From a plasmid: a stretch of DNA of 64,000 nucleotides. The stretch lies in the sequence record NZ_CP015284.1; one strand, given 5' to 3'. The notes beneath the pieces are model-generated. The model was not told where the DNA came from. It was given only the letters and a program-made list of their open reading frames with translations, and did not search any database. How positions within the stretch are numbered: position 1 is the first letter of the stretch; each line of letters opens with the position of its first letter. The translations under genes were made by a program, and so were the position numbers. Positions 3,176-63,356 of the stretch are shown in pieces.

Positions 3176-4157
3176 GAGAAAGGAATATATATATTTACTA
3201 TTATGAACCATATAGTTCATTTAAAAGGATTTATTACTTTCTAAATTGGAATTTATATAAGGAATGCTATAAAAAATATGAAATCATTTTGTGAGTTGAG
3301 TCTTATTTTTTCAGGCTAGGAAACACCCCAATAACGAGGCGCCACAGAATTACCAAAGTCAGCTTGAGACTTGATTACGGATTTTCTCTTTATCCTAGAA
3401 TAAATGTAAGCGTCCAATAATAAAGTATCTCCCCCTTACCTAAACTCCCTACTAAACTATTACTATGGAGCATGTAACGACATTACAATAAATAAATCTG
3501 GGACAGGTCCATATCTTTTGCGGAAAAACAGGCTTAAGAAAAGGAATTGACTCCCTGGTTTTTTTGGTGAAATCACAATACGATTTAGTCCCATTTTCAA
3601 AATCTATCTTTATCTTTTGCAGTAGACGAAGTAATCGCTTCAAAGTACTTTACTGGGATGGTGAGGTGGGGTACTCTACAAGAGGTATGAAAATAGAAAA
3701 CTACCCGGCTAAGAGATGTTAACGAAGTTCGAGTTCTTACGGAAGAGGAAGTGGACTGGCTCATGAAGAGGGCTATTCACCGCAAAAAAATAGTACAAGA
3801 AGTCGTGTTCTCTATTGAGTCATGGATTTTGAACCAGTATAATAGAAAAATCAGTGTAACGTGGCTCTTTTCTACCATTTGTCAAGTATAATACGGTTTC
3901 TGATTCAACATTATTTATGAAAGTGTATGAAGGGAATTTATTGAGGAATAGTTCAAGCCGTTTTTTCTGACATTTGAGCATATAAAAACGACACCTTATC
4001 TGGTATTTTTTGAAACAAGGTGTTACAATAATACGGCATAGACAGCCTTATCGATTTTGGGTCAAAGAGTAATCGTAAAGTTTGTTATGCGTAATGAGGT
4101 AATACATTGTTCGAATGAGACGATGTATAGAGGCAATCGTATGTGGCTTAGTTGAAG

Positions 4158-6712: not shown

Positions 6713-6954
6713 AAGTTCTTCCTAATGATGGTTTGGTTGCTTTTCATTATAGTTCTTATGGGACTTTTTGTCTGCATTCAAAAAGCTCTATAATCTCTAC
6801 AGTGGTTTTACCCACTACAGAAATTATAGAGCCTGTTACACCTTGTTATTGAATACTTACGAATAAATAGCCAATTTTTTAAAATTATTGACAAAAAAAT
6901 ATTATTGTCTTACAATAATATCGAAGAAAGAATTATTGTAAGGCAATAATTGAG

Positions 6955-12180: not shown

Positions 12181-13085
12181 TTAAGTCTAGTGTACCAGCT
12201 TACAGGCAAGATATTTGTTTAGAACAAAATAAAAACTAGGGGGGAACCCTAGTTAGCAGTAGACGTTCATACAAGAGTATTATGTAAATAAGAATGTTAG
12301 AGTGAAGTCTCTATGATAGAAGCTAATTAGAGACAAAGGGAAGATTAATTCATAGTTTGATGTATGTGTCTACTACTGAGATTATAACAGTGCGGTTAGA
12401 ATTTTTCAACAAGTTTTGTTAAAAGTCAAATTCTCAACTTAGGTAAGATAACATTTCAGATTAAGCTAAAAATTTTTTGAGACAAGTAAAATTGTAATTA
12501 GGGATGCCTCAAAGCTGTTCATATTTAGTAATTTAACAGCATTTTAGATTCTGATGATGAATTGATAATTAAATTTAAGTGGCTAAATAATTACTATGCA
12601 TATGAGAAAATAATATAATTAGATTGTATGACGATTGTCATTTAGATTATATTGTGCTATATTACTTCTTAGATAGTTTATCTATGTATCATCTCCCAAG
12701 GTAGATGGGTAAACTGTGGAATATTAATGCAGAAAAACGCAGGAGTTACTCTTGCGTGCATTAGGGAGGGATGTCGATTGTTTCTTGGTGAACAATTTTA
12801 TTGAGCAAGTTGTGAATAACAACGATACTTAAATATTTAAAATAATTTCTTGAAGGATGAAAAATAACCTAATAGAAGAATATTTTGTCATAGTTGAAAG
12901 TTTATTTGAAAATAAAAAACAGCTCTTTTCACAATGGAAGGAGCCAGACTTTTATAGATAGCTTTTATTATATGGATTTGATATACTCTTATATGTAGAA
13001 AAGTGATAGACGGTGGCTTTCAATTATTAGAGAGGAGTGATGCCTATGGGCAAACATTCAAAATCTAGTAGAGAGGAGAGCCGTT

Positions 13086-13190
13086 TTGACAGCGTTCGAG
13101 ATTGTGCAAACCATTCTAGGCTTTGGTAGTTTTACTATCGCTCTAATTGGATTATGCTACAAACTCTTTAAAGACGATGACAAAAAATAA
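13086..13190 (+). CDS. putative holin-like toxin (34 aa, (M)TAFEIVQTILGFGSFTIALIGLCYKLFKDDDKK) with a TTG start
   Basis: RBS AGGAGA 5 nt upstream. It has a single TM helix and a charged C-terminal tail, typical of the small 'holin-like toxin' family of Firmicutes. The ORF track missed it. Confidence 0.5.
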   Translation: MTAFEIVQTILGFGSFTIALIGLCYKLFKDDDKK

Positions 13191-13268
13191 TCCGTCCCCA
13201 CTTTTGGCGAAGTAAGACGGATTATTTTCGTTTAAAACTAGCCACCGTCTTTTAAACGGCTCTACATG

Positions 13269-13299
13269 GAAGTTGAGTGACTGCTCAACTTCTTTTTTT
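13269..13299 (+). terminator. rho-independent terminator (GAAGTTGAG-N6-CTCAACTTC followed by T7)
   Basis: Read directly from the sequence, downstream of the small toxin ORF. Confidence 0.6.
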
Positions 13300-13621
13300 C
13301 TACCACAATTTTATCAGAATAAACAATTTAAGTCAATTCGAAATATACAGATATTGATAAACTGACAGTACCAATGATAAATGAGTATATAGAAAAAGTA
13401 GTAGTCCATGAAGCAACAGGGGGAAGAAAAGGAAAAGATAGAAAACAACAAGTCGATGTTTACTTTAATTTTATAGGCAACTGTCAAGTGCTATGAAAAG
13501 CGAGCATAGAAAAAATGACTTAAAAATGGTAAAATATTATTAGTTAATTTAGACTAACTTGCAATTAGCTTTCATCTTTAAGGAATAATGTGAAATGCTA
13601 AAAGCGGAGAGAGTTTAAAAT

Positions 13622-20561: not shown

Positions 20562-21972
20562 TCTTTGTCAACTGTAGTGGGTGACGAAAAGCTAACATCT
20601 AGAGAGGACCTGATAGGTCTTCTCTTTTTTTATGTTCAGAGTGATTAAGATCCGCTTCCTAAAGTTGATGAAGTTTCTAAAACCAAATCCTAGACGTTTG
20701 ATGTCTTTGATCAACTTGTTAGTCGCTTCAAGTTTTGCATTTGAATAGTCCGTTTCTAGTGCGTTTTTGATGTATTGCTTGTGTCTAAGAAAAGTCCTAA
20801 AGACAGTTTGAAAATAATGATTAACCTTGCTCCTATTTTCCTCTATCAGCTCAAAGAACTCAGCTACTCTCTTCTCCTGAAAATGAAAAAGTAAGATCTG
20901 ATAAAGTGTATAGTAGTCGGTAAGCTCTTCTGAAAAGTCTAGTGTTTTCCCAACAACTTCATGTGGACTTAAGGTTTGGTGGAATGTCTTTGAATAAAAA
21001 GAGTTGAGAGATAACTTACGGCTGTCCTTTTGGAAGAGTCGCCAATGATTTTTCAAGGCTCGATAGGGTAGTGACTTCTTATCGAACTGGTTCATAATCG
21101 CAATTCTTGTCTTTAAAAAGGCACGACCAAGGTGCTGGATAATGTGGAAACGATCAAGAACGATTTTAGCGTTTGGAAAAAGTCTTTTGGCAAGTGGAAT
21201 ATAAGCTCCAGACATATCCATCGTGATAAACTGCACCTGTTGGCGAGCTTTTAATGGATACTTTAAAAAGTAGTTTCGTATAGAGGTTTGGCGACGATTA
21301 TCAAGGATGGTTATGAGTTCGTTTGTCTCATAATTCTGCGCCACAAAAGCCAATTCCCCTTTCTTGAACCCAAACTCATCCCAGGACATAACAGCTGGAA
21401 GTTTGTCATAATGTTCTTTGAAAGTGAACTGGTCAAGCTTACGATAGACAGTGGACGTCGACACACGAAGTCTTCTGGCAATATCAGTTAGTGAGACCTT
21501 CTCAGTTAGGAGTTGTGCAACCTTTTGTCGGACTAGATTGGAGATTTGGCAGTTTTTCTCAACGATTGATGTCTCAGCTACCGTGACTCGTCTACAACTT
21601 TTACACTGAAAGCGACGTTTCTTCAGACGTAGTAGTGTTGGAGTTCCCGTTTGCTCGAGAAGAGGGATTTTAGAAGGCTTTTGAAAGTCATATTTGATCA
21701 TCTTTCCTTGGCAGTGAGGACATGATGGTGCAGGGTAATCAAGTTTTGCTTGAATCTCTATATGAGTGTCAGTTTCAAAAACAAGTGAAATCTTGATATT
21801 TTGGTCTTTAATTCCGATTAATTCTGTGGTATTCTTAATAAGTCTCATAAGTTCTTCCTAATGATGGTTTGGTCGCTTTTCATTATAGTTCTTATGGGAC
21901 TTTTTGTGTACACTTAAAAAGCTCTATAATCTCTACAGTGGTTTTACCCACTACAGAAATTATAGAGCCATA
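20562..21972 (-). mobile_element. complete ISL3-family insertion sequence (IS1193-like, ~1.41 kb)
   Basis: Terminal inverted repeats GGCTCTTTGTCAACTGTAGTGGGT (right) and GGCTCTATAATTTCTGTAGTGGGT (left) flank an intact transposase gene. Confidence 0.85.
20592..21848 (-). CDS. ISL3-family transposase (418 aa, intact)
   Basis: N-terminal zinc finger (CPHCQG...CKSCRR) and a DDE core. It is the full-length counterpart of the pseudogene at 5497..6712. Confidence 0.9.
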   Translation of the reverse strand: MRLIKNTTELIGIKDQNIKISLVFETDTHIEIQAKLDYPAPSCPHCQGKMIKYDFQKPSKIPLLEQTGTPTLLRLKKRRFQCKSCRRVTVAETSIVEKNCQISNLVRQKVAQLLTEKVSLTDIARRLRVSTSTVYRKLDQFTFKEHYDKLPAVMSWDEFGFKKGELAFVAQNYETNELITILDNRRQTSIRNYFLKYPLKARQQVQFITMDMSGAYIPLAKRLFPNAKIVLDRFHIIQHLGRAFLKTRIAIMNQFDKKSLPYRALKNHWRLFQKDSRKLSLNSFYSKTFHQTLSPHEVVGKTLDFSEELTDYYTLYQILLFHFQEKRVAEFFELIEENRSKVNHYFQTVFRTFLRHKQYIKNALETDYSNAKLEATNKLIKDIKRLGFGFRNFINFRKRILITLNIKKEKTYQVLSRC

Positions 21973-37763: not shown

Positions 37764-38294
37764 TTAATTGAATGCCCGTCTACGCATTGAAATGCCAACT
37801 TCTTGCCAAGATATCTCCATATCATCAGAGGGCGTGTTTCCTAATAGAAAAACAGACTTATTATGGAATAGAGTATCAAATCCAATGTCTTCATAAAAGA
37901 GTTCTTCGTCATCATATTGATAGCCAGAATCAATATCGAATTCATTCTCAAATATAGCACGGCAGATAAAGTAAGCCCCTAGACCATAGTAAGTAATAGG
38001 TTCGTTGGAACCTTTAGGTGTGGCTTCAAATCGATAGTACTTTTCTACTTCAATGGAGTCTTGAGCATTGACTTCAATAGGCTTAAGGTAACAGAACCCA
38101 CGACTAGCGAGAGCTTCATCTAATTGCTGACGTAGAGGACTTTTTTTATGAGCAATAAGACCAGGGATGGAATCTGCATTACTTTCGATAAAGTCACACG
38201 CATTCAGAAGAATCAAACCTTTTTGAAAAAAGTTTGGGCTAGTCTGTCTGTCTAGCCATTCACCTAAAAATCGGTTAATACGAGGTGTATTCAT
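37764..38294 (-). CDS. hypothetical protein (176 aa)
   Basis: ORF only. There is no convincing match to ArdA-type anti-restriction proteins. Confidence 0.4.
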   Translation of the reverse strand: MNTPRINRFLGEWLDRQTSPNFFQKGLILLNACDFIESNADSIPGLIAHKKSPLRQQLDEALASRGFCYLKPIEVNAQDSIEVEKYYRFEATPKGSNEPITYYGLGAYFICRAIFENEFDIDSGYQYDDEELFYEDIGFDTLFHNKSVFLLGNTPSDDMEISWQEVGISMRRRAFN

Positions 38295-42450: not shown

Positions 42451-45231
42451 ATGAACACTAGAGAACAGAAAAAGCAAGCCAAGGCTTTTATTAAGCGTTG
42501 GGAAAACCGTGGTAGCGAAAGACAAGATAGCCAATCTTTCTGGCTAGACCTACTGCAATCTGTTTATGGGATTGAAAACCCAACAGAATATATTAGTTTT
42601 GAAAATAAAGTAGCGTTGGATCACACTAGCTTCATTGATGGTTTCATCGACAAAACAAAGGTTATGATTGAACAAAAAGGGGCAAACAAAGACCTCAATA
42701 AAGCTATTAGACAGTCTGATGGTACTTATCTTACACCTTTCCAACAAGCGAAACGTTATTCAGCTAACGTCCCCTACTCTAGACGTCCTAGATGGATTAT
42801 TACTTGTAATTTCAAAGAGTTCTATATCTATGATATGGAGCAGCCTAATGGCGAACCTAAAGTTGTTCAATTAGCAGACCTTGATAAAGAAGCCTATCGA
42901 CTAGAATTTCTCGTAGATAAGACCAACGAACACCTAGAACGTGAAATGAAAGTCTCAATGGAGGCTGGGGAAATCGTAGGCGAAATCTATGACGGATTGC
43001 TAAAACAATATGTCAATCCAGACAATCCAGATAGTCTACATGCGATTAACCAACTTGTCGTACGCCTTGTATTTTGTTTGTATGCAGAGGATGCTGGTAT
43101 CTTTGGACACAAAATGATGTTCCATGACTACCTAGCTCGTTTTGGAAGTCGTGACTTTCGTCGTGGGTTAATGGACCTTTTCTCTGTCCTTGACACACCA
43201 ATCGACACGCGCGACCCCTACCTTGATAGCGAACTAAACGCCTTCCCTTATGTAAACGGTGGGATGTTTGCAGAGAATAATCTAGAAATACCTAATTTCA
43301 CCGATGAACTCCGAGAGCTTATACTTGAACACGCTTCTTCTGGCTTTGACTGGTCAGAAATCAGTCCAACTATCTTTGGTGCAGTGTTTGAATCAACTCT
43401 TAACCCAGAAACACGTCGAAGTGGTGGGATGCATTATACTTCGATTGAAAACATCCATAAAGTTATTGATCCGTTATTCTTGGACGAGCTAAAAGAAGAG
43501 TTAAATGAAATACGTCAATTTAAGCAACCTAAAACGGTTGAACAAAAAGCAAAACAGTTTCAATCAAAACTAGCGAGTCTTCTTTTCTTCGACCCAGCTT
43601 GTGGTTCTGGAAATTTCTTAACTGAAACATACGTCTCTCTTAGACGCTTAGAAAATGAAGCTATTAAGCTATATATGGGTGATACCGTTGCTTTGGATCT
43701 CGGTCAAGATTTAGTCAAAGTAAAGCTGAAGCAATTCTATGGTATTGAGATTAATGACTTTGCAGTTTCTGTAGCCAAAACAGCTCTCTGGATTGCAGAA
43801 AGCCAAATGCTTGAAGAGACTAAAGATATTGTATTTGCAAATATCGACTTCCTTCCACTTAAGTCATATACCAATATCGTTGAAGGAAATGCTTTAGAGC
43901 TGGATTGGGAAAGTGTAGTTCCCAAAGAAAAGCTAAACTATATCATTGGGAATCCACCGTTTGTCGGAGCTAATGGTGTCAGTAAATCCCAGAAACAAGA
44001 ATTAATAAACTTGTTTGGCGAAAAGAGTAATGCAGGAATTTTAGATTACGTAGGAGGATGGTATGCTAAATCCGCAATATTAATTAACGATACAAATATT
44101 AGGTGTGCATTTGTATCAACTAATTCCATTTCTCAAGGTGAGCAAGTTTCTGTTTTATGGGACTTCCTATTAAAGAAAAATATTTCTATAGATTTTGCGT
44201 ATAAAACTTTTGTATGGAATAGTGAGGCAAAAGAGAAAGCAAAAGTCCACTGTATTATTATTGGATTTAGCTCAGTGAAACAGAGTAAGTTAATCCTTTT
44301 TGATAAGGACAACAAAGAAATTGTCGAAGCAATTAGTCCATATCTAATTGAAGGAAAAATGATCTATGTAAGGAGAAGAAACAAGCCTATATCCCAAAAG
44401 TTACAAATGTCTAGAGGTAATCAACCAACTGATGGCGGGAATTTAATAATTAAAGCTGAAGAGTATGATAGTTTTATCAAATCTGAACCAACAGCAAAAA
44501 AATATATAAAAAAATTAATCGGTTCTAGGGAGTTCATTAACAGTTTAGATAGATATTGTTTATGGCTTGTAGGAGTTTCCCCAAAAGAGTTACGTTCTAT
44601 GCCTAAAGTCTTAGAACGTGTAAATTTGGTTAAAGAAATGAGACTAAACAGTTCGGCTTTGGGGACTAGAAAATTAGCGGAGAGGTCTCATGAATTTAGA
44701 GAAACTAAAAATCCAAATACATATCTAATTATTCCAAGAGTTTCATCAGAGAGTAGACGGTACATTCCAATTGGTTTTTTAGACTCTGATACTATTCCTA
44801 CAGATTCAGTAACAATTATTGAAGATGCTTCTCTTTACGACTTCGGTATTTTAACTTCAAATGTACATATGGCATGGATGCGTACAGTTGCTGGACGCCT
44901 TAAATCAGATTATCGCTACTCTGCCAAAATCGTATACAATAACTTCCCTTGGCCTGAAGTAACAGATGCCCAAAAAGAGAAAATATCAAAAACTGCTCAA
45001 GCAATTCTTGATGCGCGTGCACTTTATCCAGACAGTTCATTAGCTGATCTCTATGATGAGCTAACCATGCCTAAAGAACTTCGTCGAGCCCACCAAGCTA
45101 ATGATAAAGCAGTTATGGAAGCATATGGATTAACCAAAATAGTCGATGGCAAAAAAACTTGGCTAACTGAGAGTGAGACAGTCGCAAGACTATTTGAGTT
45201 ATATGAGCAGATTACAAACAGCAAATCATAG
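42451..45231 (+). CDS. MmeI-family type IIL restriction-modification enzyme (fused PD-(D/E)xK nuclease, gamma-class N6-adenine methyltransferase and target-recognition domain)
   Basis: 926 aa. The N-terminus has D-x-FID...EQK (a PD-ExK-like motif). The middle has FFDPACGSGNFL (SAM motif I) and IIGNPPFVGA (NPPF motif IV). The size and domain order match MmeI-like enzymes. Confidence 0.75.
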   Translation: MNTREQKKQAKAFIKRWENRGSERQDSQSFWLDLLQSVYGIENPTEYISFENKVALDHTSFIDGFIDKTKVMIEQKGANKDLNKAIRQSDGTYLTPFQQAKRYSANVPYSRRPRWIITCNFKEFYIYDMEQPNGEPKVVQLADLDKEAYRLEFLVDKTNEHLEREMKVSMEAGEIVGEIYDGLLKQYVNPDNPDSLHAINQLVVRLVFCLYAEDAGIFGHKMMFHDYLARFGSRDFRRGLMDLFSVLDTPIDTRDPYLDSELNAFPYVNGGMFAENNLEIPNFTDELRELILEHASSGFDWSEISPTIFGAVFESTLNPETRRSGGMHYTSIENIHKVIDPLFLDELKEELNEIRQFKQPKTVEQKAKQFQSKLASLLFFDPACGSGNFLTETYVSLRRLENEAIKLYMGDTVALDLGQDLVKVKLKQFYGIEINDFAVSVAKTALWIAESQMLEETKDIVFANIDFLPLKSYTNIVEGNALELDWESVVPKEKLNYIIGNPPFVGANGVSKSQKQELINLFGEKSNAGILDYVGGWYAKSAILINDTNIRCAFVSTNSISQGEQVSVLWDFLLKKNISIDFAYKTFVWNSEAKEKAKVHCIIIGFSSVKQSKLILFDKDNKEIVEAISPYLIEGKMIYVRRRNKPISQKLQMSRGNQPTDGGNLIIKAEEYDSFIKSEPTAKKYIKKLIGSREFINSLDRYCLWLVGVSPKELRSMPKVLERVNLVKEMRLNSSALGTRKLAERSHEFRETKNPNTYLIIPRVSSESRRYIPIGFLDSDTIPTDSVTIIEDASLYDFGILTSNVHMAWMRTVAGRLKSDYRYSAKIVYNNFPWPEVTDAQKEKISKTAQAILDARALYPDSSLADLYDELTMPKELRRAHQANDKAVMEAYGLTKIVDGKKTWLTESETVARLFELYEQITNSKS

Positions 45232-46065: not shown

Positions 46066-46229
46066 TTATGCACTTTTTCAAATTCTATTATAACTTTTCT
46101 CATAGAAATTAACAAAGAGACCTAGTTTTAGTAAAACTTTTTCTCGTGACCGAAATTTAAAAAATCAAGCAAATAAAAAGGAGTCAAAAGATGACTCCTT
46201 TTTTGTATTTACATAATTATGTTTATGTA

Positions 46230-47030
46230 TTATTTTGCCTTATTTTCACTAACAGTTAGGTCAATTAGGGGTAGATAGCTTGGAGAAAACCTACCATTGA
46301 TTCCAAATGGATGGAAGTTAAAATGAAGATGGTATAGCGTATCTTTCGTTTCAAACGTATGTTTGATATTCCCTGGAGCAGTTCCCTCTCTATAATAACG
46401 AGGAGAAATTACTTTCTCACATTCCATATTAGTAACCTCAACAATCGACCTATACTCCGGCTTAATAGCATTCTTATTGATTATTGTCATTTGAGCATTA
46501 GTGTCATAGCCTGTCAATTCAATATCATTAATAAGTGAATGTTCATTATATAAGCTGGTTTCAGTAGATTTCTTCAAACCAAGATAATCCACATCCATAA
46601 CATTCTTGAATAGATAACGTTTAAATAAGCTAGAACTTAGTTTCGTTCCCAAATAATAAAGGGCAAGACTAACTAACAATAGCTCAAAAATCAATGTCAT
46701 GCTTGCATCCGTAACCCGGATTGGTTTCATCAAAAGAATACATAAACCAAACATTTCCATTATACTTACAAGGGAGGTAAATACCCACCAGTCACTACCA
46801 CTCTTATATTTAAAAACAGCCCTTAGCGTAAAGAGACCGAGGTAAACTCCTTGAAAGATATAAAGGAAGACCGTTACTTGATTTATAGGCAGTGTATTAA
46901 TAAAAACATTAAGGAAAATCGTTACCATAATTATAACGAACCATAAGAAAGCTTTTCTCAAACACCAGTCTAGGCCTTGCACAGCCAATAATGACATGCT
47001 TTTCGGATTAATTTTTGATTGTTTACTCAT
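46230..47030 (-). CDS. polytopic membrane protein (266 aa), conjugation-associated by context
   Basis: Several hydrophobic helices. It lies immediately downstream of the hydrolase gene. Confidence 0.45.
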   Translation of the reverse strand: MSKQSKINPKSMSLLAVQGLDWCLRKAFLWFVIIMVTIFLNVFINTLPINQVTVFLYIFQGVYLGLFTLRAVFKYKSGSDWWVFTSLVSIMEMFGLCILLMKPIRVTDASMTLIFELLLVSLALYYLGTKLSSSLFKRYLFKNVMDVDYLGLKKSTETSLYNEHSLINDIELTGYDTNAQMTIINKNAIKPEYRSIVEVTNMECEKVISPRYYREGTAPGNIKHTFETKDTLYHLHFNFHPFGINGRFSPSYLPLIDLTVSENKAK

Positions 47031-53599: not shown

Positions 53600-53962
53600 A
53601 TGCTAGACTTTTTACAAGATTTTTATTTTTCACTTTATATAAGCACTTGGACCTCGTTTAAATGGTTACTTTTTTCAGTACTGATTGGTATCGCTTGCTT
53701 CTTGCTTACGCTTCTTTTTTCTACGATAAGTGAGGCGGCAGAAACGATTTGGTTTAAATTTTCTTTGTCTCTAACTGGAATATTTGCTCTGTTTTGTTTA
53801 TTCATGACACTTCATGGCATCATCCACTCAATAGGAATCCTAGTAGGTGCTGTTTCTAGTTTCTTTTTCCCAGTATTTGGCTTAATCATTATCTGTGGAA
53901 TTATCCTATTCATCATCAGTCTTTTTAATCCATTCTTCCTCTTCTTCTTAGTTAAGAAATAA
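53600..53962 (+). CDS. small polytopic membrane protein (120 aa), opposite orientation within the operon
   Basis: Three hydrophobic helices. The ORF is followed by a hairpin plus T-run at ~53966-53995. Confidence 0.35.
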   Translation: MLDFLQDFYFSLYISTWTSFKWLLFSVLIGIACFLLTLLFSTISEAAETIWFKFSLSLTGIFALFCLFMTLHGIIHSIGILVGAVSSFFFPVFGLIIICGIILFIISLFNPFFLFFLVKK

Positions 53963-54003
53963 AAAACAAGCCTTTAATATGGCTTGTTTTTTTTAGACTA
54001 TTA

Positions 54004-60684: not shown

Positions 60685-61818
60685 TTATTCCCCAATATCT
60701 TGTTTTACTGAGCGCACTGGTGAATTAAACTTGTAGGTACCATTCTTAACTGCTTTGATATTCTTTTCAATCTGTTCAATGATTGTCTGAACATAAGCAG
60801 CATTTTCACGCGCTTTCGCTCCGTCCTTCTCTTTAGAGTCCATACTTTTCTCGATAGCTTCCATATCACTCTGCTTATCGGTTAACTCGTTACCGACCAA
60901 GTATTCTGACTCACGCTTCAACTGCTCCAATGTCTTAGTATCTTCCTTGACACTGTCATCAAGTGTTTTTGCAGAAGCCAAGAGTTCTTTTCGTTGACCT
61001 TTTTGATATTTCAACTCCTCTTCAAAAATATTGAGGGCAAACTTCTCACGAGACAAATTCTTGACATATTTGTTTTTGAGAAGTTCATTTTGAGGAGTTA
61101 CAAAGAAATCAACGTAGTTCTTATTCCCTTCCTTATCTTTTTGTTTATTCTGCTTAGAAACTGAAGCGTCATTAGAACTTGATGATAAGTAGTCATTGTA
61201 TTCTTGAACGTCAATCTTGAGACTGTTTGAGTTCGGTGTCTTATTTGTCGCACGAATAACCATGAGCGTATAATCTGAAGGCACATTACGCATGACCAGA
61301 TACACCTTATCTCCGGTTAACGGAATGACTTCTAAGGTCACTGCTTCAGGATTCTTAACACTACTTGGCAAGAAAACCTGCCAATCAAGATTTTCAGTAT
61401 TAATCCCTTTTTTAATAGCACTAGTAGCATCTGATGTTGTTAACTCCATAACGACCAACCCATTTGAAGAAGAGTAAGTCATAGAGGTTGCTGTGATGCT
61501 TCCAAGGCCATTACCAAATGATTGTGCTGCCTGCAGTTGTGACTCTAAGTAAGTAACTCGGGTTGGAGAGAAATAAGCAGTTGTAGCTGTCCAGACCATA
61601 GTTCCCAGTAATGCATAGCTAATGATTAACGTTCGTTTTAACCGATGTCGCCTCAAGTAAGAAAGAACTCTGTTACTCTCCCAGAAGGACTTGATCCTAT
61701 TTGCTGCTCTAATCGGAAAATACCGCCAACCTTCCAGCTCTTCGAGCCCCTGTGTATTTTCATAATCTTTAAATTCTACCATGAAGCCATGATAGGCTAT
61801 TTTATATAGGTGTCGCAA
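60685..61818 (-). CDS. bitopic membrane protein (N-terminal TM plus a large extracellular domain, 377 aa); VirB8/TcpC-like candidate
   Basis: TM segment TLIISYALLGTMVWTATTAYF, then a soluble domain. Confidence 0.4.
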   Translation of the reverse strand: MRHLYKIAYHGFMVEFKDYENTQGLEELEGWRYFPIRAANRIKSFWESNRVLSYLRRHRLKRTLIISYALLGTMVWTATTAYFSPTRVTYLESQLQAAQSFGNGLGSITATSMTYSSSNGLVVMELTTSDATSAIKKGINTENLDWQVFLPSSVKNPEAVTLEVIPLTGDKVYLVMRNVPSDYTLMVIRATNKTPNSNSLKIDVQEYNDYLSSSSNDASVSKQNKQKDKEGNKNYVDFFVTPQNELLKNKYVKNLSREKFALNIFEEELKYQKGQRKELLASAKTLDDSVKEDTKTLEQLKRESEYLVGNELTDKQSDMEAIEKSMDSKEKDGAKARENAAYVQTIIEQIEKNIKAVKNGTYKFNSPVRSVKQDIGE

Positions 61819-62493
61819 CCTAGTGACATAGGTTGACTTTCGAGCTTATTCTGGTTTCCTAGCATTGAAATAACCCCTTTAATAAGCTATACTAAAAATG
61901 TGTTTAGGAGTATTCCTAAACACAGTCATTGTTTTCCCCTTCGGGGAATTTTATGGAGAGGTTGCTTTTCTCCTTCTTCTCCATTTCTTCTTTTTCATAA
62001 AACGTCATTGTTTTTTGAAAATATTGTTGTTGTGACCATTGGAACTTCCTGTTGTTCCGATGGTTTTTTCTTGTCTAAATGAGGTCCTTTGACAACAAAA
62101 AAGAGGCAGCCCTCAATGGACTACCTCTCTTCCCAAGAGAAATTTCTCTGGAGAAGAAAAACAATGACTATTTTTAGTTTAACAGCGAGGGGAGAAACCT
62201 CATAACACTAAAAACAGAAAGGATAGTTATGCTTTGGGGGAGGTCCCTGATTCATAACTAATAGAAGTTAATAGATTATGTTAGATACGAGAGGAGAAAT
62301 CTCGTCTAACCTTACAACAATGGTTGGGTTAAGGAGAGGGGAGAAACCTCATTCCTGAACCTTGATATAAGTATATCATAATAGGTCTTGTATTCGAAGC
62401 TCAGAGGACCCTTTATTTCACTTTTTTATATTTTTTTAACCTCCTATAATCACGCTATTATTAACTGACATCATTCTAAAAAAATAATTCAGG

Positions 62494-62676
62494 CTATTCT
62501 CCAGATGCTGATGAAACTAGTAGGTTTTGTCTTTCATTACATGGGATATTTACTTTCACCCCTAAAGCTTCAACTTGTCCACCTTTATAAATAAAGCAAT
62601 ATCCTAATCCTGCAAACAGAAAGATACATAGTCTTCCACTAGATGTATTTAAAAAATTATAAAAGTCTTTATCCAT
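62494..62676 (-). CDS. small membrane protein (60 aa) with a strong RBS
   Basis: AAGGAGA lies 6 nt upstream of the ATG. Hydrophobic stretch LCIFLFAGLGYCFIY. Confidence 0.45.
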   Translation of the reverse strand: MDKDFYNFLNTSSGRLCIFLFAGLGYCFIYKGGQVEALGVKVNIPCNERQNLLVSSASGE

Positions 62677-62690
62677 ATTAATCTCCTTAT

Positions 62691-63356
62691 CTATGTTAGT
62701 TTATTACTAATTTTACCTATTACAAATCCTACTGATAGAAGACAACCTCCCCAAATAATCTTTTGAAAGATTTTTGATTCCTCTTGATTATTGTTCTGCT
62801 CTTCAACCTGCTCCTCTGGCGTTTTTTGTTCTATAACTAATGTGTTTAGATTGGTTTCAAAACCTGTCTTTCCTTTATTGAGTTGTCCCAAATTATCAAT
62901 AAAACAAACCATGATTTTCTTTCCTTTACAGGAATATAATTTGTTCAATTTATAAGCATCGACACTCAAATTTTTATCATTCGTTATTAGTAACTGTGAA
63001 TGCTTTGACTTATCTTTGGTAATTCTAGATAACAATTCTGAGTCAGCAAAAGCCGAACTAACCTCTGACTGTTTTAAATCCTTATCTTCAAATATAAATA
63101 AATTACTGTAGTTCTTGAAAAGCAGAATCACAGATTTCGCTTTCTCTTGTTTTTCAATATTCTTTGAACTCAAATGCCTAACAATTTCTAAACATACTTC
63201 TCGGGTAACAATTATTTTCTTATTTAGAGCCTCAAAAATATCTTGATATTGCACTAAAAACCTGCCCAATTCTGTATCATTCATTAGCGATGAGGTATCA
63301 ATATATATCTTCTCATTAAGAGCCAACAAATCTTCTACATATTCTCTATTTGTCAT
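62691..63356 (-). CDS. hypothetical protein with a C-terminal TM anchor (221 aa)
   Basis: ORF followed by a terminator-like hairpin at ~63418-63445 upstream. No family recognised. Confidence 0.45.
   Translation of the reverse strand: MTNREYVEDLLALNEKIYIDTSSLMNDTELGRFLVQYQDIFEALNKKIIVTREVCLEIVRHLSSKNIEKQEKAKSVILLFKNYSNLFIFEDKDLKQSEVSSAFADSELLSRITKDKSKHSQLLITNDKNLSVDAYKLNKLYSCKGKKIMVCFIDNLGQLNKGKTGFETNLNTLVIEQKTPEEQVEEQNNNQEESKIFQKIIWGGCLLSVGFVIGKISNKLT

What the first reader, a model, noticed from the sequence alone, without database searches (positions are those of the whole stretch)
61819..62493. Structured 675-bp intergenic region: palindrome, tetraloop hairpin and three covarying stem-loops with a conserved GGAGAAA loop
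The region contains a 22-bp perfect palindrome (TGTTTAGGA-GTAT-TCCTAAACA at 61901..61922) and a CCCC-TTCG-GGGG hairpin at 61936..61946. It also has three repeats: 62186..62203, 62288..62306 and 62334..62352. In these the stem sequence changes (GAGG/CCTC versus CGAGA/TCTCG) while the loop GGAGAAA is kept, which is a covariation pattern typical of functional RNA or protein-binding hairpins. On the minus-strand transcript the loops read UUUCUCC, an anti-Shine-Dalgarno sequence. The position upstream of the T4SS operon fits an oriT or relaxosome site, a regulatory sRNA, or iterons.
Basis: seen in the sequence. Interest (0 to 1): 0.6.

Follow-up and report, generated by a model that had tools for sequence, protein, structure and literature searches.

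The report
Two convergent small RNAs beside T4SS
The "structured intergenic region" is most likely two small non-coding RNA genes that face each other next to the promoter of the DNA-transfer (type IV secretion) genes of a Streptococcus salivarius megaplasmid. One of them carries three near-identical hairpins whose loops mimic the ribosome's anti-Shine-Dalgarno sequence, so it probably silences translation of target genes, but nobody has tested this.

Summary
They do not form a single element. The window matches S. salivarius-group megaplasmids, and the region lies between variable cargo and a Gram-positive T4SS gene cluster.

It resolves into three parts:
- **T4SS promoter.** TTGCGA-18-TATCAT sits 6 nt before the ATG of the first T4SS gene, a leaderless arrangement that recurs in relatives down to 36% protein identity.
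- **Plus-strand RNA, about 170 nt (61900-62072).** It contains the "palindrome" as a 5' hairpin, the UUCG hairpin, a hairpin that sequesters an AUG, and a terminator.
- **Minus-strand RNA, about 270 nt (62363 to 62095).** It has an extended -10 promoter inside a palindrome, seven hairpins including the three G/A[UUUCUCC]C/U hairpins, an invariant single-stranded GUCAUUGUUUUUCUUCU, and a strong terminator.

G·U pairs, fold energies and both terminators assign each RNA to its strand. There is no Rfam match, and the ORFs inside the minus-strand RNA gene do not hold up. A 15-21 aa ORF in the plus-strand RNA stays open.

The most likely mechanism is a trans-acting anti-SD sRNA linked to T4SS control. 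This is inferred, and no target was found. The main rival is a cis-acting leader or antiterminator RNA. oriT and iterons are not supported.

This is a new, narrowly distributed member of a known kind, of moderate interest.

The parts
61780..61818 (-). Putative T4SS-operon promoter. The -35 TTGCGA is at 61818-61813, followed by an 18-nt spacer and the -10 TATCAT at 61794-61789. Six nt later comes the ATG of the first T4SS gene (61782-61780), a leaderless arrangement. A CAACCTA-N6-TAGGTTG inverted repeat overlaps the -35.
   Evidence: Promoter scan. Both hexamers are invariant while the spacer varies at fixed length (A1). There is no SD before the ATG. The same -10-N6-ATG geometry is seen in L200 (TTACGA-18-TATGAT-6-ATG) and in L202 and L203 (TATAAT-6-ATG).
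61865..61893 (+). Promoter of the plus-strand RNA: TTGAAA-17-TATACT.
   Evidence: 10 of 12 matches. It is conserved in the window clade (A1 and A4). The -10 and start region TATACTAAAAA are also conserved in L200.
61899..62072 (+). Plus-strand small RNA, about 170 nt. In order it has:
- a 5' hairpin at 61899-61924 (the 'palindrome');
- a GUCAUUGUUUU box at 61925-61935;
- the UUCG hairpin at 61934-61949;
- a hairpin that sequesters an AUG (AUGGAGAGG 61953-61961 pairing with CUUCUCCAU 61976-61984) with UUUCUCC (61967-61973) in its loop;
- a second GUCAUUGUUUUU box at 62004-62015;
- the terminator T+, hairpin 62034-62065 plus U-tract to about 62072.
   Evidence: The RNA folds better than its reverse complement in all 9 homologues, for example -59.8 versus -47.6 kcal/mol. 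T+ is -18.1 kcal/mol on the plus strand versus -12.5 on the minus strand. U·G pairs are valid only in the plus orientation. The stem of the AUG hairpin covaries in MAG01WH (A-U to G-C, G·U to A-U). The 5' hairpin stem is entirely different in L200 but is still followed by CAUUGUU.
61953..62000 (+). Candidate 15-codon ORF MERLLFSFFSISSFS inside the plus-strand RNA. GGGGAA lies 4 nt upstream. Coding status is unresolved.
   Evidence: The peptide is identical in 4 long-form homologues and differs by one residue in DB-B5. MAG01WH encodes MEELSFSFSSITSFLKTSLLL. In ICDC2, TCA TAA changes to TCT TGA, which is silent. The ORF lies in an ~80-nt segment that is missing in 3 of 9 homologues (A4).
62095..62363 (-). 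Minus-strand small RNA, about 270 nt. From 5' to 3' it has:
- H3 (62362-62326; loop UUUCUCC = plus strand 62340-62346);
- a small hairpin;
- H2 (62310-62280; loop 62293-62299);
- a middle hairpin (about 62260-62225) with CCUCCCCC in the loop;
- extended H1 (62217-62168; loop 62191-62197);
- an invariant single-stranded AUAGUCAUUGUUUUUCUUCU (62171-62152);
- a hairpin just before the terminator (62157-62128);
- the terminator T-.
   Evidence: - MFE -86.9 kcal/mol, z = -4.8.
- Consensus structure from 12 homologues.
- 99.3% of cells pair, against 42-53% when the partners are slid by 1-3 columns.
- Minus-orientation consensus energy -67.0 versus -55.8 kcal/mol for plus.
- 14 anti-SD core tetramers against a window mean of 2.3 (sd 2.1); reached by 0.08% of windows, almost all at this locus.
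- Present and co-oriented with the first T4SS gene in all 12 homologous loci retrieved with a full-length copy.
62094..62128 (-). Intrinsic terminator T- of the minus-strand RNA: AGAGGUAGUCC-AUUGA-GGGCUGCCUCU followed by UUUUUGUUGU.
   Evidence: The hairpin is -21.1 kcal/mol (z = -5.6) on the minus strand versus -10.2 on the plus strand. Two G·U pairs exist only in the minus orientation. The basal pair changes A-U to C-G in the divergent clade. Weak Rfam alignments place terminator stems on it, on the minus strand. A homologous terminator is present in L200.
62363..62398 (-). Promoter P- of the minus-strand RNA. The -35 TTCGAA is at 62398-62393, followed by a 17-nt spacer, the TRTG motif TATG at 62380-62377, and the -10 TATACT at 62375-62370. 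The start is about 62363. The -10 and +1 lie inside the palindrome TGATATAAGTATATCA (62363-62378), a candidate operator.
   Evidence: Read from the sequence. The palindrome is unique in the window. There are no indels, and the -10 and TG are invariant across 12 homologues. CATGATATACTTATNTCAAGGTT and an upstream AAAGGGTCCT box are also conserved in L200, while the -35 is not. The scan tool did not report this promoter because the -35 matches only 3 of 6.
62399..62447 (-). Conserved A/T-rich stretch upstream of P- that includes an AAAGGGTCCT box. It is the outer edge of the conserved block; sequence beyond 62447 differs between plasmids.
   Evidence: Alignments A1, A2 and A5. Neighbouring genes differ between plasmids.

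Best explanation
**Shown in silico.** The region holds two independent, convergently transcribed small non-coding RNA genes. They sit between variable cargo and the T4SS operon's own promoter, which is arranged for a leaderless mRNA. The setting is a family of S. salivarius-group megaplasmids.

- The three repeated hairpins belong to a minus-strand RNA of about 270 nt.
- It starts at an extended -10 promoter embedded in a palindrome, which is probably a repressor operator.
- It ends at a strong intrinsic terminator about 20-25 nt from the terminator of the opposing plus-strand RNA of about 170 nt.
- The plus-strand RNA contains the 'palindrome' and the UUCG hairpin.

**Inferred.** The minus-strand RNA acts in trans as a base-pairing regulator.

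- It displays three 7-nt UUUCUCC loops and further CU-rich stretches (CCUCCCCC, CCUUUCU).
- It also has an invariant single-stranded GUCAUUGUUUUUCUUCU, the exact antisense of an SD-spacer-AUG region.
- All of these mimic the 3' end of 16S rRNA.
- It would therefore pair with ribosome-binding sites of target mRNAs, block translation or trigger decay, and so tune expression linked to the T4SS module.
- The plus-strand RNA shares the UUUCUCC loop and the GUCAUUGUU box in the same sense. It probably addresses the same partner, either an RNA or an RNA-binding protein.

No target was identified.
For: **Context**
- The window matches 7 Streptococcus megaplasmids at 85-95% identity.
- The downstream genes form a Gram-positive T4SS cluster: a VirB2-like pilin, a TcpC-like protein, a TraG/VirB4 P-loop ATPase and a cell-wall hydrolase.
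- The RNA lies upstream of, and co-oriented with, the first T4SS gene in all 12 homologous loci retrieved with a full-length copy.

**Strand assignment**
- T- is -21.1 kcal/mol on the minus strand versus -10.2 on the plus strand. T+ is -18.1 on the plus strand versus -12.5 on the minus strand.
- Helices contain 67 G·U cells against 1 A·C cell.
- The consensus MFE is -67.0 on the minus strand versus -55.8 on the plus strand, and 10 of 12 single sequences fold better on the minus strand.
- The plus-strand RNA folds better than its reverse complement in 9 of 9 homologues.

**Structure**
- Minus-strand RNA fold z = -4.8.
- 99.3% of cells pair, with 3 compensated pairs.
- In L200 the hairpin stems are replaced but the loop and box motifs are kept.

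**Promoters**
- P- has its -10 and TG invariant, also in L200.
- The T4SS operon has its own promoter, with conserved hexamers, a variable spacer and a -10-N6-ATG geometry in four lineages. This argues that the RNAs are separate transcription units.

**Non-coding status**
- The small ORFs in the minus-strand RNA gene are broken by 1-2 nt indels, a lost start codon or shifting stop codons.

**Anti-SD character**
- 14 CUCC/CCUC/UCCU tetramers, the highest density in the window.
Against: - No expression data were available. Promoters, ends and strands are all predictions.
- No convincing target was found. The best local duplexes with the plus-strand RNA (-26.3 kcal/mol, against -20.7 ± 2.4 for shuffled targets) and with the 5' region of the T4SS operon (-19.2, against -20.8 ± 2.9) are unremarkable. 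Only generic AGGAGAAA SDs match the loops, before genes 46230-47030 and 37764-38294.
- Phylogenetic depth is shallow. All three compensated pairs in A3 stem from one clade split, and the count of covarying pairs does not exceed shuffles (109 of 500).
- The comparison with L200 rests on one distant sequence, and only its 5' part aligns automatically.
- The -35 of P- is weak and is not conserved in L200.
- A structured RNA followed by a terminator upstream of a conjugation operon is also the layout of cis-acting attenuators and antiterminators.
Confidence: 0.5

Rival explanations
1. Cis-acting leader. P- is the regulated conjugation promoter. The ~270-nt structured RNA is then either an attenuator or a processive-antitermination element, of the kind described for pLS20 cATT and conAn2 or for Tn916 canT. 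T- is a conditional terminator or insulator that is read through into the T4SS operon. The plus-strand RNA would act as a countertranscript against the read-through RNA, in the manner of Anti-Q on pCF10.
For: - The layout fits: promoter with operator, then a long conserved structured RNA, then a terminator, upstream of and co-oriented with a T4SS cluster of more than 15 kb.
- Such leaders are described as common on Gram-positive conjugative plasmids (PMC13401043, PMC8191782, PMC11658703).
- Before the 3' arm of T- is transcribed, the window-clade RNA can pair UUGUUUUUCUUCUC with GGGAAGAGAGGUAGU. That is 15 bp including 6 G·U, and it captures the 5' arm of the terminator.
- Terminator-like hairpins lie inside the T4SS cluster at 53961-53992 and 46175-46203.
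Against: - The first T4SS gene has its own conserved promoter placed for a leaderless mRNA, and no SD that a read-through transcript could use.
- T- lies more than 300 nt from the first gene. An opposing transcription unit sits between them: the plus-strand RNA and, in three loci, a GNAT gene as well.
- The alternative pairing is not conserved in the divergent clade.
- With T- formed the RNA is about 15 kcal/mol more stable.
- No ConAn1 (PF17362) domain was found in the first genes, even at E = 10.
- L200 keeps only one hairpin, the box and the terminator.
Confidence: 0.2
2. Type I toxin-antitoxin-like or peptide-gene module. The plus-strand RNA is an mRNA for a small peptide (MERLLFSFFSISSFS). 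Its start codon is masked by structure and further repressed by the convergent minus-strand RNA, whose CU-rich sequences pair with its GGGGAA...AUGGAGAGG initiation region.
For: - The two RNAs are convergent with adjacent terminators, as in par/Fst-type loci. That resemblance comes from my own knowledge.
- The small ORF has an SD-like GGGGAA and is retained in 6 long-form homologues with similar peptides. One change is a silent stop-to-stop switch.
- The best inter-RNA duplex covers exactly this initiation region (-26.3 kcal/mol, about 2.3 sd below shuffles).
- A RatA/rli28-type locus exists elsewhere in the window.
Against: - The ORF-bearing ~80 nt are deleted in 3 of 9 homologues while the minus-strand RNA is kept intact.
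- The peptide is 15-21 aa, serine-rich and not a typical membrane toxin.
- The predicted duplex is not conserved in the divergent clade (compared by eye).
- The stem of the same segment covaries as RNA structure.
Confidence: 0.08
3. A DNA-level transfer element: an oriT or relaxosome site, or a single-strand origin or ssDNA promoter, whose hairpins form in the transferred strand.
For: - It lies at the edge of the T4SS module.
- It has several inverted repeats.
- Compensatory changes are equally compatible with DNA hairpins.
Against: - No relaxase gene is adjacent, and all 7 plasmids are typed non-mobilizable (annotations).
- The hairpins are framed by promoter and terminator signals on the strand where they fold best.
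- Three short hairpins with identical loops are not the usual oriT anatomy of one inverted repeat next to a nick site. That comparison is from my own knowledge.
- No ssoA CS-6 (TAGCGT) motif was seen in the sequence.
Confidence: 0.07
4. Plus-strand function of the hairpin region. The GGAGAAA loops would be GGA-type protein-binding sites of a CsrB/RsmZ-like sponge, or SD-like sites in a plus-strand transcript that also encodes the 13-aa ORF MTIFSLTARGETS. That ORF has an SD (GGAGAAG) 8 nt upstream of its ATG.
For: - The GGA motif sits in the hairpin loops on the plus strand.
- A well-placed SD and ATG lie at 62150-62168.
- The plus-strand fold has z = -3.4.
Against: - No conserved plus-strand promoter exists. 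The TTGACA at 62090 is lost in the divergent clade.
- The plus-strand consensus fold is about 11 kcal/mol worse than the minus-strand one and loses helices.
- G·U pairs on the minus strand become A·C mismatches on the plus strand.
- The stop codon of the ORF moves, giving 9 to 15 aa, and the substitutions change the amino acid.
- That streptococci lack CsrA is my own recollection and was not tested.
Confidence: 0.05
5. Iterons or other repeated binding sites for a replication or partition protein.
For: There are three 17-bp direct repeats, and three copies of GTCATTGTTTT within 250 bp.
Against: - Spacing is irregular (102 and 47 bp).
- No rep or par gene is adjacent.
- The flank beyond 62447 is variable cargo.
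- The L200 homologue has a single hairpin.
- The repeats are themselves hairpins with strand-specific G·U pairs.
Confidence: 0.03

Closest known systems
Firmicute sRNAs that expose C/U-rich anti-SD motifs in hairpin loops (S. aureus RNAIII 3' domain, RsaE/RoxS, streptococcal csRNAs). The comparison is from my own knowledge.
   Same: - A stand-alone gene with its own promoter and intrinsic terminator.
- Several hairpins whose loops or linkers carry pyrimidine-rich motifs complementary to Shine-Dalgarno sequences, plus an anti-AUG (CAU) element.
- Predicted to act by masking ribosome-binding sites.
   Different: - No sequence or covariance-model match to any Rfam family.
- The loop motif is UUUCUCC rather than UCCC or CCCC.
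- It is plasmid-borne, fixed next to a T4SS operon and paired with a convergent second RNA that shares its motifs.
- Targets are unknown.
pCF10 prgQ (Qs/QL) and Anti-Q, and the pAD1 iad/mD system: convergent RNA control of enterococcal conjugation. pCF10 is cited in PMC13401043; the details are from my own knowledge.
   Same: - Two convergent promoters upstream of a conjugation operon.
- A terminator-ended RNA co-oriented with the operon and a small opposing RNA.
- A candidate small peptide ORF is present.
   Different: - Here the two RNAs do not overlap. Their 3' ends lie about 20-25 nt apart, so they are not antisense to each other unless a terminator is read through.
- The motifs they share are in the same sense, not complementary.
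- The T4SS operon has its own promoter.
- No PrgX- or PrgR/TraE1-type gene was detected.
Cis-acting leader RNAs of Gram-positive conjugation operons: the pLS20 zipper-type attenuator cATT (PMC13401043), conAn2 (PMC8191782) and Tn916 canT (PMC11658703).
   Same: - A long, conserved, structured RNA with a terminator.
- It lies downstream of a regulated promoter and upstream of, and co-oriented with, a long T4SS gene cluster.
   Different: - There is no ConAn1 protein gene.
- The terminator is not immediately before the first gene.
- An opposing transcription unit and a separate leaderless-type promoter lie in between.
- The alternative antiterminator pairing is not conserved.
- There is no sequence similarity that would allow the element to be assigned to these families.
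par (Fst/RNA I-RNA II)-type type I toxin-antitoxin loci. The comparison is from my own knowledge.
   Same: - Two small convergent RNAs with adjacent terminators.
- One carries a short ORF whose start codon is structurally masked.
   Different: - The peptide is 15-21 aa and serine-rich.
- The ORF segment is absent in a third of homologues.
- The shared repeats are inverted at the DNA level, so they are not complementary between the two RNAs.

Membership tests
Any Rfam 15 family | A covariance-model score at or above the family's gathering threshold | tested here: not met
   No hit in 61600-62750. The best E-value was 0.38 at 22 bits against a gathering score of 51, and that alignment covers only terminator stems. 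The homologous loci L200, L202-L205 and L006 also gave no hit.
Trans-acting anti-SD sRNA (RNAIII, RsaE or csRNA type) | A discrete transcription unit with its own promoter and intrinsic terminator and no conserved ORF | tested here: met
   In silico only. P- has TRTG plus TATACT, invariant across homologues. T- is -21.1 kcal/mol with a U-tract. The ORFs are broken by indels or have shifting stop codons. No expression data were available.
Trans-acting anti-SD sRNA (RNAIII, RsaE or csRNA type) | Pyrimidine-rich anti-SD motifs exposed in loops or single-stranded linkers | tested here: met
   There are three UUUCUCC loops, a CCUCCCCC loop, and CCUUUCU and GUCAUUGUUUUUCUUCU linkers in the consensus fold. 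The density of anti-SD tetramers is 14, against a window mean of 2.3.
Trans-acting anti-SD sRNA (RNAIII, RsaE or csRNA type) | Demonstrable pairing with the ribosome-binding site of a target mRNA | tested here: inconclusive
   No duplex stood out above shuffled controls. Only generic AGGAGAAA SDs were found, before genes 46230-47030 and 37764-38294. The rest of the plasmid and the chromosome could not be searched.
pCF10-type convergent sense/antisense switch (Qs and Anti-Q) | A countertranscript complementary to the leader upstream of its terminator, produced by overlapping convergent transcription | tested here: not met
   The predicted 3' ends are about 62072 (plus) and about 62095 (minus), so the RNAs do not overlap. 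The shared 20-nt and 10-nt segments are inverted repeats in the DNA, so they read in the same sense in the two RNAs (I1, I4 and I12).
conAn bipartite antitermination system | A ConAn1 protein (Pfam PF17362, also annotated PrgR or TraE1) as the first gene of the operon, with the conAn2 RNA region downstream of it | tested here: not met
   No PF17362 hit for the 365-, 132- or 140-aa proteins, even at E = 10. The RNA lies upstream of the first gene, not downstream. The family definition is taken from PMC8191782.
Zipper-type attenuator (cATT of pLS20) | An intrinsic terminator just upstream of the first gene's SD, and a conserved alternative pairing of its 5' arm that extends a long stem-loop | tested here: inconclusive
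   A 15-bp alternative pairing, rich in G·U, exists in the window clade but not convincingly in the divergent clade. The terminator lies more than 300 nt from the first gene, with an opposing unit and a separate promoter in between. Criteria are taken from PMC13401043.
oriT | A nick site next to an inverted repeat, recognised by a cognate relaxase that is usually encoded nearby; confers mobilisation in cis | not testable with these tools
   No relaxase is annotated nearby, and all 7 plasmids are typed non-mobilizable. No nick-site consensus could be assigned. A mobilisation assay is needed.
Iterons of a replication origin | Regularly phased direct repeats next to a rep gene | tested here: not met
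   Spacing is 102 and 47 bp. The adjacent genes are T4SS genes on one side and variable cargo on the other. L200 has a single copy.
CsrB/RsmZ-type protein sponge | Multiple GGA motifs in the hairpin loops of the transcribed strand, and a CsrA-family partner | tested here: not met
   GGA is in the loops only on the plus strand. Terminator, promoter, G·U and energy evidence all point to the minus strand. Whether a CsrA partner exists was not tested.

The most novel reading that the evidence does not exclude
The two convergent RNAs could form a dedicated switch for the T4SS genes of S. salivarius megaplasmids, which are currently typed as non-mobilisable. In this reading the YUUCUCC loops and the GUCAYUGU box, kept in both RNAs and across clades while the stems change, are recognition elements for one common partner. 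That partner might be a plasmid RNA-binding protein, or the SD regions of mRNAs that use an SD. The multi-loop RNA would then work as a mimic of the 16S rRNA 3' end, damping translation that depends on an SD. The leaderless first T4SS gene would escape this. That would be a new way of gating conjugation.
Probability: 0.1. Interest if true: 0.65.

Novelty: new member of a known kind. Interest (0 to 1): 0.4.

Why it matters
S. salivarius megaplasmids, including those of probiotic bacteriocin producers and related giant oral elements, carry a T4SS. How they are regulated and whether they can transfer are essentially uncharacterised, and typing tools call them non-mobilisable.

This analysis gives concrete handles for testing whether and when these plasmids switch on transfer: a conserved, unannotated pair of sRNA genes at the edge of the T4SS module, a palindromic operator at one sRNA promoter, and a leaderless-type promoter for the first T4SS gene.

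It also adds two candidate RNA families that are absent from Rfam. The expected biology, sRNA control of a conjugation module, is of a familiar kind, so the find is useful rather than surprising.

Tried and rejected
- **Rfam.** Gathering and permissive thresholds on the window, and gathering on six related loci, gave no family.
- **BLASTN for wider homologues.** The RNA region matched no phage records. In plasmids it matched only the same 7 megaplasmids, even at E = 1.
- **Genome scan with the first T4SS protein.** It returned only 3 close loci.
- **Degenerate two-hairpin pattern.** The scan of metagenome and viral contigs was too unspecific, giving about 190 loci. Filtering by BLAST and by hairpin context left only 4 more close homologues.
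- **Coding explanations.**
  - The 45-aa and 60-aa plus-strand ORFs and the 10-aa MLWGRSLIHN ORF are frameshifted in homologues.
  - The 13-aa MTIFSL... ORF has a shifting stop codon.
  - The minus-strand MRFLPS... ORFs lose their ATG in the divergent clade.
- **Target search.** Whole-length duplexfold output was meaningless. Windowed duplexes did not beat shuffled controls. The complement of the GTCATTGTTTTT box does not sit at any start codon in the window.
- **ComX (cin-box) reading of TTCGAATA at P-.** Dropped because the motif is not conserved in L200.
- **ConAn1 in the first T4SS genes.** Absent.
- **Conserved antiterminator.** Only a clade-specific alternative pairing was found.
- **More distant T4SS modules (36-49% identity in the first gene).**
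  - In L202 and L203 the intergenic space upstream of the first gene is short.
  - In L204-L206 the contigs end within about 430 nt upstream.
  - No recognisable homologue of either RNA was seen in any of them.
Full report
**Observation**

- The inverted repeat at 61901-61922 extends to perfect 11-bp arms, 61899-61909 and 61914-61924, around a non-palindromic GTAT (I10). It folds at -14.7 kcal/mol, z = -6.5.
- CCCC-TTCG-GGGG lies at 61936-61947.
- The three 17-nt repeats lie at 62187-62203, 62289-62305 and 62336-62352 (D1).
- The repeat occurs 4 times in the window with up to 3 mismatches, against 0.17 expected; 0 of 100 shuffles reached that.
- Hairpins with an exact TTTCTCC loop occur only here in the 64 kb.
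- In register the three copies differ by one compensated pair, the loop-closing G-C versus A-T, plus different outer stems. The covariation between copies is therefore real but thin.

**Context**

The region matches only seven Streptococcus megaplasmids of 138-237 kb: five S. salivarius, one S. equinus and one Streptococcus sp., at 85-95% identity. All are typed non-mobilizable. No phage record matches.

The minus-strand genes downstream form a Gram-positive T4SS cluster. It includes a Clp-type ATPase, a VirB2-like pilin, a TcpC-like protein, a TraG/VirB4 P-loop ATPase and a cell-wall hydrolase.

Alignment of homologous loci shows a conserved block from the first T4SS gene out to window position about 62447. 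Beyond that point the plasmids carry unrelated cargo. I recovered 12 further loci from plasmids, genomes and metagenomes. In every one the hairpin region lies upstream of, and co-oriented with, the first T4SS gene.

**Anatomy**

The region resolves into three units.

*(a) A promoter for the T4SS operon.*
- TTGCGA-18-TATCAT at 61818-61789 ends 6 nt before the ATG at 61782, and that ATG has no SD.
- The hexamers are invariant while the 18-nt spacer varies at fixed length.
- A relative with 66% identity in the first gene has TTACGA-18-TATGAT-6-ATG with an unrelated spacer.
- Relatives at 41% and 36% identity have TATAAT-6-ATG.
- This is the geometry of a leaderless mRNA. It argues that the operon does not depend on transcription arriving from further upstream.

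*(b) A plus-strand unit.*
- The promoter TTGAAA-17-TATACT is at 61865-61893.
- It is followed in order by the 'palindrome' as a 5' hairpin, a GUCAUUGUUUU box and the UUCG hairpin.
- Next comes a hairpin pairing AUGGAGAGG with CUUCUCCAU, with UUUUCUCC in its loop.
- A second GUCAUUGUUUUU box follows, then a strong terminator: 12 bp plus a U-tract, -18.1 kcal/mol on the plus strand versus -12.5 on the minus strand.
- It folds better than its reverse complement in 9 of 9 homologues.
- U·G pairs in the 5' hairpin, the UUCG hairpin and the terminator are valid only on the plus strand.
- Three of the nine homologues lack about 80 nt between the two direct GTCATTGTTTT repeats, including the UUCG hairpin and a 15-codon ORF. 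That segment is therefore dispensable.

*(c) A minus-strand unit.*
- The promoter is TTCGAA-17-TATACT with an upstream TATG (TRTG) motif. Its -10 and start site lie inside the unique palindrome TGATATAAGTATATCA at 62363-62378.
- The RNA of about 270 nt follows, and then the terminator AGAGGUAGUCC-AUUGA-GGGCUGCCUCU-UUUUU. That hairpin is -21.1 kcal/mol, z = -5.6, against -10.2 for the plus-strand reading.

**Strand and structure of the hairpin-bearing RNA**

- The minus-strand sequence folds at -86.9 kcal/mol, z = -4.8. The plus-strand reading has z = -3.4.
- RNAalifold on 12 homologues predicts seven local hairpins plus the terminator.
- For that structure 99.3% of cells pair, against 42-53% when the partners are slid by 1-3 columns. 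Three pairs show compensatory double changes.
- These include H1 GAGG/CCUC changing to UAGG/CCUA. The basal pair of the terminator also changes from A-U to C-G.
- The helices hold 67 G·U cells and 1 A·C cell.
- Because that structure was predicted on the minus strand, I also folded the reverse-complemented alignment independently. The result was -55.8 versus -67.0 kcal/mol, with helices lost, and 10 of 12 single sequences favour the minus strand.
- Depth is a caveat. All the double changes come from one clade split, and the number of covarying pairs does not exceed the shuffle control (109 of 500).

**A more distant homologue**

The 66%-identity relative (L200) adds independent support.
- It keeps CATGATATACTTATNTCAAGGTT, which is the -10, start site and 5' end of the minus-strand RNA.
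- It has one hairpin with a CUUCUCC loop on a different stem (UAGGA/UCCUA).
- It has a single-stranded GUCACUGUGUUUCUGCUCUU and a related terminator.
- Opposite that, it has a plus-strand RNA whose 10-bp 5' hairpin has an unrelated stem sequence, yet is again followed by CAUUGUU and ends in a terminator.
- So the convergent pair, the loop motif and the box are conserved while the stems drift. The three hairpins in the window look like an expansion of a one-hairpin core.

**Coding potential**

- Indels of 1-2 nt break the 10-aa ORF and the 45- and 60-aa plus-strand ORFs.
- The 13-aa plus-strand ORF that starts inside the box has a stop codon that moves, giving 9 to 15 aa, and its substitutions change the amino acid.
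- The short minus-strand ORFs lose their ATG in the divergent clade.
- Only the 15-aa ORF in the plus-strand RNA stays open. Its peptides are similar across six homologues and one change is a silent stop switch. However, it lies in the dispensable segment, and the same bases covary as a stem.

**Mechanism**

The minus-strand RNA has the highest density of anti-SD core tetramers in the window: 14, against a mean of 2.3 (sd 2.1). Only 0.08% of windows reach that count, and almost all of those overlap this locus.

Its loops read UUUCUCC, and another loop reads CCUCCCCC. A linker reads CCUUUCU. The invariant single-stranded AUAGUCAUUGUUUUUCUUCU is the antisense of GGAGAAG-N8-AUG. That these resemble the 3' end of 16S rRNA is my own knowledge.

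I therefore favour a trans-acting sRNA that masks ribosome-binding sites and is functionally tied to the T4SS module it always accompanies. The plus-strand RNA shares UUUCUCC and the box in the same sense, not as complements (I1, I4 and I12), so it would address the same partner.

This step is inferred. I found no specific target. Windowed duplexes with the plus-strand RNA and with the T4SS 5' region were no better than shuffled controls. The complement of the box does not fall at any start codon in the window. Only generic AGGAGAAA SDs match the loops, before genes 46230-47030 and 37764-38294.

**Rivals**

The strongest rival is a cis-acting leader.
- Gram-positive conjugation operons often begin with long structured RNAs and terminators. 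Examples are the pLS20 zipper attenuator (PMC13401043), conAn2 (PMC8191782), Tn916 canT (PMC11658703) and pCF10 prgQ/Anti-Q.
- In its favour are the layout, a clade-specific 15-bp alternative pairing that captures the terminator's 5' arm, and terminator-like hairpins inside the cluster.
- Against it are the separate leaderless-type promoter and the opposing unit between T- and the first gene. In three loci that unit also includes a GNAT gene.
- Also against it: the alternative pairing is not conserved, ConAn1 is absent, and L200 has only a minimal form of the RNA.

A type I toxin-antitoxin-like reading, a DNA-level oriT or sso reading, a plus-strand GGA-loop sponge and iterons are each less likely, for the reasons given in their entries.

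**Verdict**

It is wrong in treating the region as one element and in the oriT and iteron suggestions.

This is an unannotated, narrowly distributed pair of candidate sRNA genes. It is a new member of a known kind, with moderate interest.

Noticed in passing
window 6724-6833 (+), 21860-21969 (+), 12972-13155 (+), 13220-13311 (-): Rfam gathering-level hits elsewhere in the window: two copies of Srn266, and an rli28-like RNA convergent with a RatA antitoxin RNA. The last two probably form a type I toxin-antitoxin locus.
   Followed up: no
window 61780-61818; L200 3955-4003; L202 about 3985-4003; L203 about 3985-4003: The first T4SS gene is preceded by a -10 hexamer exactly 6 nt before its ATG and has no SD. 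This holds in four lineages from 100% down to 36% protein identity, which suggests a conserved leaderless mRNA for the first gene of the T4SS cluster.
   Followed up: partly
window 61925-62015; alignment A4: About 80 nt between two direct GTCATTGTTTT repeats are present in 6 homologues and absent in 3 (S. equinus FDAARGOS_251, FDAARGOS_192 and AMBR024). The pattern fits deletion by recombination between the repeats.
   Followed up: partly
L002 6349-6846; L006 3203-3700; L007 (equivalent position): In the divergent clade a GNAT acetyltransferase gene, oriented against the T4SS genes, sits between the T4SS promoter and the plus-strand RNA. In those loci the plus-strand RNA may be the 3' UTR of that gene.
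   Followed up: partly
window 42451-45231 (+); 46175-46203; 53961-53992: An MmeI-family restriction-modification gene lies on the opposite strand at the edge of the minus-strand T4SS gene cluster. Two bidirectional terminator-like hairpins split the cluster.
   Followed up: no
window 47048-47030 and 38305-38294 (minus strand): Two minus-strand genes, 46230-47030 and 37764-38294, have the SD AGGAGAAA. That is the exact complement of the H2 loop plus its closing U, so they are weak candidate targets.
   Followed up: partly
window 62399-62447; L200 3490-3505: An AAAGGGTCCT box about 45 nt upstream of the minus-strand RNA start is conserved even in the 66%-identity relative, whereas the -35 hexamer is not. 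It could be a regulator-binding site.
   Followed up: no
L200 3250-3480: A GC-richer intergenic stretch that looks structured lies upstream of the sRNA pair in the distant relative. It has no Rfam match.
   Followed up: no
L202 about 3840-3965; L204 about 155-285: T4SS modules with 41-49% identity in the first gene carry a short unit of TATAAT promoter, hairpins and terminator, co-oriented and directly upstream of the first gene. It has no evident sequence similarity to either RNA described here.
   Followed up: no
L006 620-1219 and 1605-2147: In the divergent clade two XRE-type HTH proteins are encoded directly upstream of, and co-oriented with, the minus-strand RNA promoter. They are candidate regulators of its palindromic operator. 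The window carries unrelated genes at that position.
   Followed up: no
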